This document shows, in pieces, positions 9,101 to 18,100 of a stretch of DNA of 64,000 nt. The notes beneath the pieces were generated by a model that was not told the DNA's origin, searched no databases, and worked only from the letters and a program-made list of their open reading frames with translations. The stretch is from NCBI RefSeq assembly GCF_003704095.1, contig NW_020846801.1, forward strand, positions 248,001-312,000, read 5' to 3'. Origin of the DNA: Pocillopora damicornis. Taxonomy: Eukaryota. How positions within the stretch are numbered: position 1 is the first letter of the stretch; each line of letters opens with the position of its first letter. The position numbers and the translations under genes are program-made.

Positions 9101-12100
9101 AAAGGTCAGTACAGCTGATGTTATCGTTTCACGTTTTGACATTCGTACGTCATTAAACCAGCTTTTAAATGTGTATTTATTGCTTCAAATATGAACTGAC
9201 TCTTACGATTAACAAAATGGCTTCGTTTCTGAAACGAACTGAACATAAACTAAAGGGGATCGTTTTGATAAAATTCCTATTAATTCAATCAACAAATAGA
9301 TTCCAAGTTTCCGTGCGTCTGCTGTGCCTCGTGTGCCACTTTTTTGTTCTTACCACATTTTGACGTCCTCTGTGATCTATTACTGAACAGACGCACGGCA
9401 ACTTGGAATCTATTTGTTTTATATAATAAAGAACTAAAAAAAGTTTTAATGATGACGTCATCTATACGTCTGTCCTCCAATAGATCATAAGTGAGAACCA
9501 ATCAGAATGCGTGCATAACCTAGCTTATTATATAATTTGAAATAGTTAATAGCTCAACCAACTATTGCGTATGTTTAAAGGCCGCTTACGATATATATAT
9601 TTCATTCTTTCAGTGTGTGCTCGTCCTGTAGACATTGTCTTTATCGTGGACGCCTCTGCAAAAGTTGACAGGAAAAATTTCCTTTACATACGCAACTTTT
9701 TGAAACAAATCGTGTCATCATTCTCTGTGTCTGCCTCAATCACTCGTTTTGGTATGGTGGAATTCAGTACTAATCCCAGAAAATTGTTCGACTTCAACCG
9801 CTTCACGAATCAGGCAACGTTAGTAAACGTGTTGGGTCGTGTGCCGTACATGGGGGGTGCGCCGATGGCGGGAAAAGCGTTGAAATATGCCGCGGCCACA
9901 CTCTTCGCACGTACCACGAGGCCGAAGGTTGCCATAGTGGTCTCCAGCGGCAAGTCACTCGACTCGGTCATGGCTCCCGCGCGAATGTTACGGCGTGCTG
10001 GCGTGACGTTAATCGCGGTAGGCCTGGGTCAAAGTTTTAGTGTTACGCAACTGCGACAGATGGCTACCACCAGGAGACACGTGTTTGCGTCACACTTTAA
10101 AACCGCGAACAACATCGTAAGATCGATCAAGGAAAAAGCTTGCAAAGGTACGAGCCATCTGTACTTGGAACAAAATTTTAAGCTGTGTTGAAATACTGCT
10201 AATTTTAACTGTATTTGGCAAACATTTTCGTTCGAATAGTGATTTTTAAAGATTTAGGACTGATGTTTTTAATGCATTTTTGTCGTAAAATTTGATGAAA
10301 GTCTATAAAAGTTAAGTTTTTTACTTTAAACGTTGGTGAACTTAAGGAATTTTTAAAACCTACGTTAAACATTCACAAAGAAAGGCGATCAAGTGGAGTT
10401 TAAGAAAGAATTGTAATTTGCAAGAAATAACTACCATAGCCCTGAGAATTCTACTCTACCGGTAGAAAGACAACTCGTTCAAATTCTGACTAGCGTTTTT
10501 CTGTATGTATAATTCTCTTAGCTCCCAAATCTGTTCCTCGTCCTGTGCCAGGAAGACCTCGACCGGGTACGTTTGACTCACTATAATTATCAGTGATATT
10601 TTCCTTGTTAGGGATAAATCGATTTATAAAATTCTGAGAAGAAAGAGTTGCTTTGACGCCGGGTTGTGAGGGACTGGGTTTGAGTCTTGCGTGTTAATTC
10701 TGTCCTGCTCTTTGGCGAGACACTTCAATCTCGTAACGCCTCTCCCCACCCAGGAACGCAAATGGGTACTCGTAAACCGCTAAGGGAAACTTCATGAAAT
10801 TCTACCAGGTTACCCGCGAAGACTAACCGCCAATCCAGGTGAAGCAGGTAGACACCTAACACCAGTCATTCTACAGAAACTGAGATACGCTTTGGTAATA
10901 AAGAGCCACAAGGCTCGAAAGAATTAATCAAAGCTGAAAAGAAGGCTGAATTCCTCTTCCACGTTCCCCCTTCTTTCCTCTACATCTGCTAAAAGGCCTA
11001 TCATGTAGCTACTGATCGATCAATTTTAACTAAGCTGCTTTACAATTCTTCTTCGGTTACCAATAGGTGGAATACGTCCGTACAAATATGTTGGCGCTTA
11101 CAAAGTTCCACCTCGCAAATATCTTGGCCGACCAATTCGAATTAAGAATCCCATATACGGACGCAGGATATGCGAACGCATTGCCCGACGGGATCGTTTC
11201 CGATCCTTTGCAGTGTTTGGCGGCCGCCTTTGTTTTCTCTCTCGTCGAGGCCCTCGTAAATTTATGATCGCTGGTCGAACAAAGTCGAAGAAGCCTAGAA
11301 CCTACATTAAGGTCTTCATTGAACCCAGAGGTTGGTGATAAGATCTGTCTCTCATAAATGATTATTTTGAACTTTCATATCATAATGCGAATTTCTGTCT
11401 TTTTTAACACATACGGAACATCTGTCTTAATACATGACGGTAATAGGTCCATCAGGTGGAATCATGCCCAGACCACTTCGGCCAAGGCCCCGGCCTCGGC
11501 CTCCTCCTGGGTCACCAGCGAGACGCAAGCCCCAACCAGTTAAATTGCCTTTGCCGAGGCCAAGGAAACCAGGTTAGATCATATCGACAGTAAAGTGTCA
11601 ATCGAACATTATGACGAGCAATTGTGGTCTAAAATTAAACTGGTGATTTCCAATCAAACTTTCAACAAAATTATCTTCCCCTTTGGTTTATAATTGCAAG
11701 ATATCTACCCTACCTAGAGTTCCCAGATTTTAAATACGTTTAGTAATAACTGACAGTATCCTATTCCTCCTTCTAGCTGGACGAATAAGACCGAGGAAAA
11801 AACTAAGGCCGACCCCAGGTATGGCATTTTTTTTTTTATGGGGAAAAAGGTTAATTTGTCTTGAACAAACCATTTCCTTTGCAAGAGATTATAAAAACAG
11901 TTTATAATTATTCTCTTGTCCTTTGTTAATACCTGAATGCGCTAAGAAAGGAAGTCTTAACAATGTCTATTTTTCCTTCTTTTAAGGTGGAAAATATAGA
12001 TACTATGGAATATATCGTGCTCCACCCGGCAGAAAACTTGGTAAACCCACAGTAATTCTAAAAAGCTTGAAGAACGCGAGAAGGAATTGTCAACGTCTAG

Positions 12101-15100: not shown

Positions 15101-18100
15101 TATAAATGCACAAAGAAATAAATGCCGTCATTTATAACTTCAGGTACATCTAGGCCCCGGCCTCGACCCAGGCCGTCGCGACGCTTATGGAACTATCGTC
15201 GCCTCGGTACATACAAAGTACCACGGGGCCGTTCATCTCCAGGCCGCAGATACTTAGGCACGGTCAGACCCAGATTAAATCCCGCCAAGCAGTGCGCTAT
15301 CATGGCGCGAAAGGCAAGATATCGCTATTTCGGAGTACGAAGCAGACGCTACTGCTATGGAGCAAGCTTACGTTCACCACTGACAAGATTTGGAAAAACG
15401 TTTGGTGTTGGAGGAATGGTTGTTTACAAGATTGGAAGAGGTGAGCTATGAAAACTCTGGATCTCCGGTTTCAACGGCAGAACTGACAAACGTTTGCGCA
15501 TGTCACGAACTTCCAAAGCAATAGCATACCTTGATTAACATGGCAACATTTTTAAAAAAGTGAAAAGCGTTGATACCCTCTATTCATAACAAGTGTTGTT
15601 GTGGAAACTTAAACAAACTAATATCCCTAGGACTGCTTAAGCCAAATGTCGACGAATTTGCTGCTCAGCTATCACAAAATGTAATTTTTCGCTCGAAAGA
15701 CAACAGTTTTTACCTAAATTTAGGCAATTGTTTCAGGATAAAAATGTGATTTTCAATAGAAAGTCAAAGGAAGATTTACAACGAAAGAATTGAGCCCAAC
15801 ATCTCCACTAACTCAGTGAAGTGTTGCTGTTCTTTCTGCATAGCCTCGCAAGAGCTCGTGACCCGCGCAAACATTCTATCGACTTGCTGTTTGAGTCGTA
15901 AACATTTTCCGACGTGAAACTGTAAGTGTAAGCTTTATGATAGAACTCACTGAAAAATAAATTATGTTTTTGTGACCTGCAGGGCGTCTGAGACCTAGGC
16001 CAAAGACAACAGTGTGGCATTATCGATACGTCGGCCGCTACAAATCACCCACTTCAACGCGTTTGGGTCGATTTATTGGAAGGATGAGAGGGAAAACGAA
16101 AGTGTTTGAATGTGCACGACGTGCCAAAAGGATGGGATACCGTGCATTTGCTTTGCGCAACCGAGGAGATTGTTACGTGTCAAGATACTCGTCAACTTAC
16201 TCCACTAAACCTAGGGTGTTTGGGCGCTTCATGGCGAGCACTGGTGGACCGCGTGCTATAGATGCTTATGTGATCAGGAAAGGTAAGATACAGCGTAAAA
16301 AAGCTTAGCTTTTGAGGATTGAATGCTGATTAGGGTGGATACAGTGCGGTTGAAGCTCCTAGATAATCCTTTGATGGTGAGCCATTCAAAAATTGATGGC
16401 ACCGCAAAAAAGTTGTGACGTCTTTATCGTCGGTGCCTGCTCAGTAATAACTCAGACATCGGATAGGACCTTAAGCCACTTTTATTGACAGAAATACCGG
16501 ACAGAAATGTATAGAGATCTTATTGATTTATTCAGCATAACGTCGAATCAGCCGTAATAAACTGCCTTTTAACCCCATTCATCGATGAGCATCAAATCAA
16601 ACATGTCAGTAAGCCCTATTTACGAGACTCTACCTTGTGATTGGTATCACTCAATTTTCGTTTGCTTTATTAAGGTCGTTTCAAGCCTCGCCCCAGGCCT
16701 CGTAAAGGAGGCTTTGCCTGGCATTACCGTTGGTTGGGACGATTCAGATCGCTAAAAGGAAGAGGTTTGGGCACGAAAATAGGTAGAGTGACAGGGAGAA
16801 AGAAGGTGTTCAGTTGCGCTCTCTTAGCAAAACGCCGAGGTTTCAAAGCATTCGCTTTACGCCGGAATGGAATCTGCTACGGAACTCGATCATCTAGAAC
16901 GTATGCAACCAAACCCATAATCAAGGGTCGCTTCAGAGCTGGCGCAGGAGGATCACGTTTCATTGATGCTTACATGATAGGGAAAGGTATGTGATACAGC
17001 CGCGGCCCTTGATCGTAGTGAAATACTTTCGTCAAGTTTCTTCTGAAAAATAAAAACTTCACCCTTGCATTAATCCCCAAGTACTGTAAGTATTGTAATT
17101 TTCACTCATATTGAGCGGTCGTGGTCATCCTTCACTGACTCCCAACGGCCAGTTTGTATTGTCTAACGCATATTGGGAACGATAGCTCAACGCCGAACTA
17201 CTCAAATAAACTAAGGATAATCTCTCAAGTAGAATTTAAACCATGTTTATCTCCCGGAATCAGTGTCAGTACTTTAAGTTCACCTTTCCCCACGCATTGC
17301 AGATTGATACTACGCATTAACATCACGGTCAAACTGTATTAAGTGGTCAGTCTGTACCAAACAGTCGCCATTCCTCAAGGTTGACCGCTTGATAGAGGTT
17401 TGACTGCAATGGTTTTGATACCTGTTCTGTAACTTCATCATGATAATTATTCTTTTGTAGGTCATTACAGACGGCCATTGAGAAAAGGCAAGTTGTACAT
17501 TTGCTATGGTTCTCTTTGAATTAAATAACGGTTTGTTGATAATTTTTAACCAACACACCTGTTAGGCCCGACAGACTTTGGCAAAACTACAGCCATTGAT
17601 ATGTTTCAAGTCTTGCACACTTCAGCTCTCTTCAGTGGCTTTCGTTTCGGGCGAGGAAACCTGGTTCAGCGCTTAAGGTCGAGAGCTCACAGATTAATCG
17701 TCAGGCGACAACTTAAAACTCCTCACGTAGAAACTTATCAGGATAAAGGAAACGAAAACAGGAAAAAAAACAAGAAAAAATGTTTACTCTTTTAATTTCG
17801 TCTCACCCAGAAACTTACCAACATGCCTCGACCTCATGTGCTCGACCCTGTTTTACGCGCGGCCAAACATAAGGTGCATGATCCTTTGATAATGTAAGCG
17901 ACTGATAACTAGTTACTAGCACATTAATCTTTGATCAAATGCCATAAATAAGCTCGCCCATGTTTTTTTTTGCAGGAGTTAAGGGTCGCTCTCGGAAAGC
18001 AAGACAACGAAAGCGAATGAAACAAATAAGAGCTGTAAGGAGAAGAGTGAGACGAACTAAGAGAAAGCAGCAGCGAGTGGCAAAAACTAGAAAACTGAAA

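What the first reader, a model, noticed from the sequence alone, without database searches (positions are those of the whole stretch)
11067..16986. Seven copies of an unrecognised ~85-aa cationic domain, a possible cysteine-stripped WSC-like fold
Seen: each copy is its own phase-1 exon and has exactly two Cys (C-x3-A...F[AG][LV]...C[YF]), an N-terminal Y-x-Y-h-G-x-Y[KR] and a C-terminal G-x-h-x-[VA]Y (GGPRAIDAY, GGSRFIDAY, PGALKVY). Established: WSC carbohydrate-binding domains begin Y-h-G-C-Y and contain C-x3-C-x3-GY-x2-AG...C-x-C with up to 8 Cys. Inference: the spacing fits a WSC-derived module in which most Cys were replaced (GCY to GAY/GIY/GSY/GRY) and the surface became polycationic. It could be a new glycan/polyanion-binding or antimicrobial domain family.
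Basis: partly seen in the sequence, partly recalled or inferred. Interest (0 to 1): 0.7.

Follow-up and report, generated by a model that had tools for sequence, protein, structure and literature searches.

The report
Two-cysteine WSC repeats in coral polycation
Seven spliced exons of a stony-coral gene encode strongly positive domains predicted to keep the known WSC fold with only two cysteines, inside a predicted 6,200-residue secreted protein whose other domains are also positive, so they likely act as electrostatic grips on negatively charged matrix or surfaces rather than forming a new domain family.

Summary
The seven exons are real: each is phase 1-1, has two Cys and net +23 to +29, and RNA contigs splice them. 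They are not a new fold. Two AlphaFold models, one built from two-Cys sequences only, have WSC domains as their top four structural matches (Z 7.9-10.2), and the tandem arrays of orthologues pass Pfam's WSC cut-off. The copies derive from the common cnidarian four-Cys WSC type. They lost one more disulfide as a pair and keep only the helix-to-strand bridge (Wsc1 C49-C69). The charge is not special to this domain. The copies sit in a predicted 6,217-residue secreted protein: signal peptide, acidic N-terminus, Gly-Gly-Pro repeats, four vWA, nine cationic LamG, seven WSC, a +146 Arg/Lys stretch and a terminal LamG. The part after the acidic N-terminus is net +944. A cationic paralogue in the same genome keeps four-Cys WSC copies. 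The array is conserved in other stony corals. Most likely role: electrostatic binding of polyanions by an extracellular matrix or adhesive scaffold; untested. Verdict: a new variant of a known domain, in an apparently undescribed giant coral polycation.

The parts
11067..11330 (+). Two-Cys WSC-type copy 1, phase 1-1 exon, net +24
   Evidence: (RNA contig piece)
11987..12241 (+). Copy 2, net +24
   Evidence: RNA by depth and summed length
13456..13716 (+). Copy 3, net +23; weak Pfam WSC (E 0.022)
14444..14692 (+). Copy 4, net +26; AlphaFold pLDDT 89, WSC fold
15144..15440 (+). Copy 5 with N-terminal Pro/Arg linker, net +28
15983..16282 (+). Copy 6, net +24; weak Pfam WSC (E 0.043); AlphaFold pLDDT 81, WSC fold
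16675..16986 (+). Copy 7, net +29
10522..13865 (+). Six small Pro/Arg linker exons (10522-10566, 11447-11572, 11777-11818, 12552-12629, 13073-13138, 13812-13865); no acidic residue
   Evidence: the five between copies 1 and 5 fit the RNA contig length
17461..17487 (+). 27-nt linker exon with a GC donor
   Evidence: 27-nt gap in RNA contigs of two runs; same peptide in the Stylophora protein
17976..19010 (+). 344-aa Arg/Lys-rich exon, net +146, no Pro, one acidic residue; no heptad signal
19225..20962 (+). Linker, C-terminal weakly charged LamG (19853-20050, 20208-20687) and last coding exon with stop
   Evidence: (joints)
1..6706 (+). Cationic LamG (Laminin_G_3) domains 4 (end) to 9 of the same gene, with Pro-rich linker exons; the gene runs about 18.8 kb further upstream (modelled ATG at G000:C3436:229174)
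7634..10147 (+). Two cationic vWA domains with a degenerate DxSxS motif (7634-7805 + 8265-8620; 9614-10147) and two linker exons

Best explanation
The seven exons encode strongly cationic two-cysteine domains predicted to keep the WSC fold, which likely serve as electrostatic grips on polyanions within a predicted giant secreted matrix or adhesive protein of stony corals. Shown: exon structure, splicing of the part from the second in-window vWA to the last LamG, charge, and kinship with the cnidarian four-Cys WSC type. Inferred steps: (1) an ancestral four-Cys WSC exon lost the beta1-to-L5 disulfide as a pair and was then multiplied to seven before several coral lineages split; (2) the remaining helix-to-beta4 bridge and the aromatic core hold a compact bead that displays 23-30 Arg/Lys; (3) these beads, spaced by stiff Pro/Arg linkers and flanked by cationic LamG, vWA and a +146 Arg/Lys stretch, bind sulfated or acidic glycans and acidic proteins by many weak charge contacts rather than through a sugar pocket; (4) the acidic N-terminal 713 residues, which hold dibasic sites, partly shield the polycation during secretion and may be cut off; (5) the Gly-Gly-Pro block is a flexible spacer.
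For: Fold: copy 6 (45-row alignment) pLDDT 80.8, top four VIA hits Wsc1, glyoxal oxidase WSC and two Kremen1 chains at Z 10.2-9.4, rmsd 2.2-2.6 over 82-87 residues, next 6.6. Copy 4 (31 two-Cys rows only) pLDDT 89.2, same four at Z 9.0-7.9, rmsd 2.6-2.7 over 73-79 residues, next 6.2. Profile-profile two-Cys versus four-Cys set: probability 98.6, E 5e-16 over 83 columns. Pfam WSC 38.9, 39.0 and 35.9 bits (cut-off 27.8) for two Stylophora models and a spliced contig of another coral. The two kept Cys align to Wsc1 C49 and C69, a disulfide pair in the crystal structure (PMC9024836, passages). Paired loss: of 351 distinct domain rows covering both sites, 295 have both outer Cys, 51 neither, 5 only the first, 0 only the second. 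Whole-protein charge: single-exon LamG domains +26 to +40, vWA +19 to +29, net +944 after residue 713, -96 before it; only the N-terminus is strongly hydrophobic. Three of four vWA lack DxSxS. Conservation: copies 3-7 are 87-96% identical to Stylophora; copies keep their order, two Cys and charge in four metagenome contigs. A single Wsc1 domain has no glycan pocket (PMC9024836).
Against: No binding, localisation or cell-type data. Foldseek alone gave no match at E<=0.001 for either model (best 0.004 and 0.04). The join of the signal peptide, acidic part and GGP block to the rest rests on phase-compatible splice sites and on the same order in the paralogue, not on RNA. The acidic part (-96) can cancel only about a tenth of the positive charge. 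Sequence conservation of each copy (65-96% across corals, with copy-specific features) is more than pure charge display needs and would suit specific partners. Tandem WSC domains can bind beta-glucan together (SiWsc3, as told in PMC9024836). Counts include near-duplicates and are not independent events; 3 of the 51 'neither' rows are neutral proteins of other origin.
Confidence: 0.6

Rival explanations
1. The protein is an innate-defence polycation of mucus or gland cells that agglutinates or kills microbes, with the WSC copies binding anionic or glucan cell walls.
For: Net +23 to +29 per 85-100 aa; acidic N-terminus with dibasic sites, like pro-forms of cationic defence proteins (recalled); LamG/pentraxin-like domains.
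Against: No dibasic-flanked release pattern was examined or shown around the copies; the protein is about 6,200 aa with GGP spacers and vWA, a structural layout. Copies are conserved and single-locus rather than fast-changing: 8 of 11 classified RNA variants in the copies are synonymous (only the best-supported variants were listed).
Confidence: 0.15
2. Each copy is a specific lectin or protein-binding module, as in Kremen1 or SiWsc3, and the charge is only a whole-protein background.
For: Wsc1 aromatic cluster 1 positions are kept: Tyr in 85%, 52% and 92% of 48 two-Cys rows at the columns matching Y22, Y24, Y107. Copies form orthologous groups across corals.
Against: The position matching Wsc1 Y64 is Arg in 79% of two-Cys rows; most vWA motifs of this gene are degenerate; all domain types became cationic together.
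Confidence: 0.17
3. The copies are a separate new domain family unrelated to WSC, or unfolded basic repeats.
For: 5 of 7 copies have no Pfam match and none passes the cut-off alone; no NCBIfam match for 7 of 7.
Against: all point to WSC.
Confidence: 0.03

Closest known systems
WSC domain (Pfam PF01822): yeast Wsc1 (7PZ2), Kremen1 (5FWS), Fusarium glyoxal oxidase (9N3U)
   Same: Predicted fold (Z 7.9-10.2); helix-to-beta4 Cys pair matching C49-C69; FA[LV] strand; Tyr at Y22, Y24, Y70, Y107 positions
   Different: 2 Cys instead of 8; both WSC-specific bridges (C27-C86, C90-C98) and the Cys of CGG are gone; loop L5 is short; pI about 12 against 5.2 for Wsc1
Four-Cys WSC type of cnidarians and other eukaryotes (GC[YFW]xD..C-x3-A..F[AG]VQxGGxC..YG..C..GxGG..NxVY)
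   Same: Direct source: full-length profile match; many loci in this genome pass Pfam WSC; nearest tree neighbours are a four-Cys copy of the C3313 paralogue and P0093
   Different: First and last Cys lost together; the D after GCY, the Q of FAVQ and the W-x-N before VY are replaced; median net +22 against +2
Paralogous cationic LamG/vWA protein on G000:C3313 (about 157-246 kb, minus strand)
   Same: Signal peptide, KPPC..acidic..CPxC segment before a near-identical first vWA, many cationic LamG, cationic WSC, same type of terminal LamG
   Different: LamG and vWA alternate; most vWA keep DxSxS; its three cationic WSC copies keep four Cys; no GGP block or long Arg-rich exon was seen in the frames listed
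Eosinophil major basic protein (analogy; details recalled, only a listing and abstract start of PMC11483036 seen)
   Same: A lectin-type fold turned into a polycation and made with an acidic pro-part
   Different: C-type lectin fold, small, single domain, cytotoxic; no homology
PAN/apple N-domain of hepatocyte growth factor
   Same: Same core fold (Z about 6); solved with heparin (entry titles), so this fold can bind polyanions
   Different: More distant than WSC; keeps two core bridges; signalling protein

Membership tests
WSC domain PF01822 | A single domain reaches the Pfam cut-off (27.8 bits) | tested here: not met
   2 of 7 copies match at 15.4 and 14.5 bits, 5 of 7 not at all
WSC domain PF01822 | Whole-protein score of the tandem array reaches the cut-off | tested here: met
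   Orthologues P0151 38.9, P0154 39.0, L035 35.9 bits; summed weak stretches; the window's own spliced array was not scanned
WSC domain PF01822 | Five-stranded sheet around one helix, WSC/PAN topology | tested here: met
   Predicted models of 2 of 7 copies; top four VIA hits all WSC
WSC domain PF01822 | Eight Cys in four disulfides, including the WSC-specific C27-C86 and C90-C98 | tested here: not met
   2 Cys in 7 of 7 copies; pairs from PMC9024836
WSC domain PF01822 | Helix-to-beta4 bridge C49-C69 | tested here: met
   Both Cys invariant in 45 of 45 rows and aligned to C49 and C69; the bond itself is inferred
WSC domain PF01822 | CGG motif before the last strand | tested here: not met
   Cys absent in 7 of 7; GG in register in copies 6 and 7, near it in a shortened loop in copies 4 and 5, absent in 1-3
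WSC domain PF01822 | Carbohydrate or protein ligand binding | not testable with these tools
   No assay possible
Four-Cys cnidarian WSC type | Full-length profile similarity | tested here: met
   hhalign probability 98.6, E 5e-16, 83 columns
Four-Cys cnidarian WSC type | GC[YFW] and loop-L5 cysteines | tested here: not met
   Both absent in all seven copies and in 48 cationic homologue rows
PAN/apple domain PF00024 | Closest fold and both helix-beta4 bridges | tested here: inconclusive
   Fold related at Z 5-6.6, below WSC; only one bridge possible

The most novel reading that the evidence does not exclude
This gene and its paralogue define an undescribed family of giant coral polycation proteins that form an adhesive fibre or anchor, such as the sticky thread of hexacoral spirocysts or the rivets of desmocytes that tie tissue to skeleton. 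They would be stored behind an acidic pro-region and set by charge pairing with acidic partners, with lectin folds (LamG, vWA, one-disulfide WSC) recycled as charged beads on an elastic Gly-Gly-Pro tether. That both structures stain with acid dyes is recalled, not checked.
Probability: 0.2. Interest if true: 0.75.

Novelty: new variant of a known kind. Interest (0 to 1): 0.45.

Why it matters
It shows a clean stepwise loss of disulfides in one fold (8 to 4 to 2 Cys, each loss a whole pair) and gives a minimal one-disulfide WSC domain that single-domain Pfam scans miss. More important is the host protein: coral matrix work has centred on acidic proteins, and here is a conserved, expressed, roughly 6,200-residue protein of net charge near +850 with a second family member, split or unnamed in public annotation. 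If it is the cationic partner of acidic skeletal or mucus polymers, or an adhesive fibre, it makes questions about coral attachment and wet adhesion testable with small recombinant modules.

Tried and rejected
PDB sequence search with the seven-copy profile gave only chance hits (DIS3, E 0.45); with four-Cys rows added it found Wsc1 at E 8e-4. NCBIfam: 0 of 7. Searches for full-length orthologues: none among 2,059-5,000-aa candidates and only the query among 646-2,058-aa ones; weak evidence by the tool's own note, so the range outside stony corals is open. Coiled coil in the Arg-rich exon: no 3.4-3.7 periodicity (283 and 92 of 500 shuffles as strong); it was not folded. Minus-strand collagen reading of the GGP block (PPG repeats): rejected because the plus strand gives phase-1 AG/GT exons in frame with the gene. 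Transmembrane anchor: none beyond the N-terminal stretch (hydropathy only, no signal-peptide predictor). L036 (34% identity, partial) was not used. The tree is the quick version on 89 columns, with composition bias; near-duplicate rows were dropped, the P0050 group is missing from it, and 35 neutral proteins were sampled. Literature: no paper holds the Stylophora or Orbicella accessions; searches and passages of PMC5792016, PMC12549020, PMC4890752, PMC13581030 and 10.1101/645952 describe no such protein. The paper reader closed before single-cell atlas supplements could be read, so cell-type data that may exist there were not seen. No complex prediction was run.
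Full report
Observation. The region holds seven homologous exons on the plus strand, each bounded by AG and GT, each a multiple of three long and in phase 1 at both ends. Each encodes 82-103 residues with two Cys and net +23 to +29. Identity to copy 1 is 20-42%. Leave-one-out profiles scored every copy far above 1000 shuffles of its own residues, and the seven-copy profile found nothing else among 1217 six-frame segments of the window. Of 23 listed runs, 22 hold part of the region; four were laid. 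One 4,976-nt RNA contig has listed pieces on the vWA exon, copies 1, 5, 6, 7, the Arg-rich exon and the terminal LamG, and the length between copies 1 and 5 equals the modelled exons. A spliced contig from a more distant coral (L035) reads copies 3 (end) to 7, the Arg-rich stretch and the LamG in one frame of 1,112 codons.

Identity of the domain. Pfam WSC matched copies 3 and 6 weakly and the other five not at all. The profile search of 1.84 billion representatives gave 252 hits at E<=0.001, of which the best 150 were listed. They fall into two groups: exon-sized two-Cys cationic sequences and a large set of four-Cys (some six- or eight-Cys) domains that Pfam calls WSC. The own genome holds many four-Cys WSC loci. 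The two groups align end to end (probability 98.6). The arrays of two Stylophora models and of L035 pass Pfam's whole-protein cut-off. The ESM Atlas returned WSC clusters for a Stylophora copy (score 0.90; borderline by its own note). Copy 6 folded at pLDDT 80.8 with a mixed alignment and copy 4 at 89.2 with two-Cys rows only; in both, the four best of 48,161 chains were WSC domains, ahead of PAN/apple domains. Foldseek ranked the same entries first but at E above 0.001.

Which cysteines went. Wsc1 has bridges C27-C86, C49-C69, C53-C71 and C90-C98; the middle two are shared with PAN domains and the outer two are WSC-specific (PMC9024836, abstract and passages). The profile alignment puts the two kept Cys on C49 and C69, with Ala at C53 and Arg or similar at C27. 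The four-Cys type had already lost C53-C71 and one loop bridge; that its last Cys partners the GCY Cys is inferred from paired loss. Among 499 aligned domains, 351 distinct rows covered both sites: 295 had both, 51 neither, 5 only the first (four of these end early in the alignment), none only the second. Of the 51, 48 are cationic (+16 to +29) and 3 are neutral proteins of other origin, so the loss has happened more than once and does not need charge. Some four-Cys rows are also cationic, up to +22. In a quick tree of 106 rows the 35 two-Cys cationic rows lie on one side of a branch (SH-aLRT 89), next to a four-Cys copy of a paralogue in this genome and to P0093; each of the seven copies groups with counterparts from other samples. 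Shared composition may inflate this grouping. Because a defining WSC feature (the cysteine set) is not met, I file it as a WSC-derived variant, not a canonical member.

The host protein. Reading 40 kb upstream gave a phase-consistent model of 60 coding exons and 6,217 residues without an internal stop: hydrophobic N-terminus, 713 acidic residues (net -96, with KR sites near residues 50, 76 and 424), vWA, eight exons with 243 Gly-Gly-Pro triplets and Thr/Lys/Pro spacers, vWA, nine LamG, two vWA, seven WSC copies with Pro/Arg linkers (768 aa, net +222), a 344-residue stretch with 147 Arg/Lys and one acidic residue, and a weakly charged LamG. Pfam confirmed LamG and vWA for the in-window exons; upstream domain names rest on similarity (for LamG) and motifs. 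RNA was laid only from window base 7000 on; a 6,517-nt contig ending in vWA is long enough to reach the first LamG. The more upstream joins are inferred. Three of the four vWA domains lack DxSxS. A paralogue on C3313 has about 25 cationic LamG matches alternating with vWA, three cationic four-Cys WSC copies, the same short Cys-Pro-flanked acidic segment before a near-identical first vWA, and the same kind of last LamG. This supports the N-terminal model and shows that cationic charge came before the loss of the bridge. Named relatives are Stylophora pistillata (85-96% in copies 3-7 and the Arg-rich part) and Orbicella faveolata (copy 1, 68%), both annotated as fragments with generic names.

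Mechanism. Every module type in the mature protein is cationic, metal-binding motifs are mostly lost, and a lone WSC domain has no sugar pocket. The simplest reading is a secreted scaffold that binds polyanions through many charge contacts, with folded domains as beads that resist collapse and hold spacing. The acidic N-terminus may ease secretion, though it offsets only a tenth of the charge. All of this is inference. Against it, the copies are well conserved and keep the tyrosines of Wsc1 aromatic cluster 1, which would fit specific partners. A defence role cannot be excluded. Where the protein acts (mesoglea, skeleton interface, mucus, cnidae) is unknown.

Known or new. No paper in the library holds the accessions, and six topical searches plus passages of five papers showed no description; subscription journals and supplements were not seen. 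PMC5792016 lists an unnamed coral 'WSC domain' protein and a pentraxin without enough detail to link them. Earlier scan notes gave nothing near this locus; one reports a four-Cys WSC tip on a protease in this genome.

Verdict. Observation confirmed; interpretation partly supported. New variant of a known domain, within an apparently undescribed family of giant coral polycations. Interest 0.45.

Noticed in passing
window 17488-17975: GC-AG intron after a 27-nt exon; the exon length fits RNA contigs of two runs.
   Followed up: yes
window, introns among the LamG exons upstream of the array: Two tRNA-Lys(CTT) genes lie in introns of this Lys/Arg-rich gene.
   Followed up: no
window 20990-21352: An intron in the 3' UTR, 27 nt after the stop codon, spliced in 3 of 4 runs.
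   Followed up: partly
window about 9330-9540 and 12740-12900: Intronic high-copy repeats, covered at thousands-fold contig depth in RNA runs.
   Followed up: no
G000:C3436:234656-241679 (upstream of the window): Eight exons of (Gly-Gly-Pro)n broken by PTKPTK-like spacers, 1,216 aa, 77% Gly+Pro; the minus strand reads as false collagen.
   Followed up: partly
G000:C3313:157000-246000, minus strand: Second giant cationic LamG/vWA/WSC gene, probably longer than the one in the window; not fully modelled.
   Followed up: partly
window 24476-39212: Gene with SUEL-type lectin exons (Pfam for the first) and a 1,620-codon low-complexity exon.
   Followed up: no
window 40972-49546 (+) and 59659-61719 (-): A multi-domain carboxypeptidase D-like gene and an AIP/FKBP-TPR-like gene; names recalled from motifs, not scanned.
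   Followed up: no
P0039 cluster (17 members): A single two-Cys copy read in frame with a long Arg/Lys stretch in other samples, suggesting a shorter array or a second gene in some corals.
   Followed up: no
P0003: An unrelated-looking protein that also joins an Arg-rich stretch to five four-Cys WSC domains.
   Followed up: no
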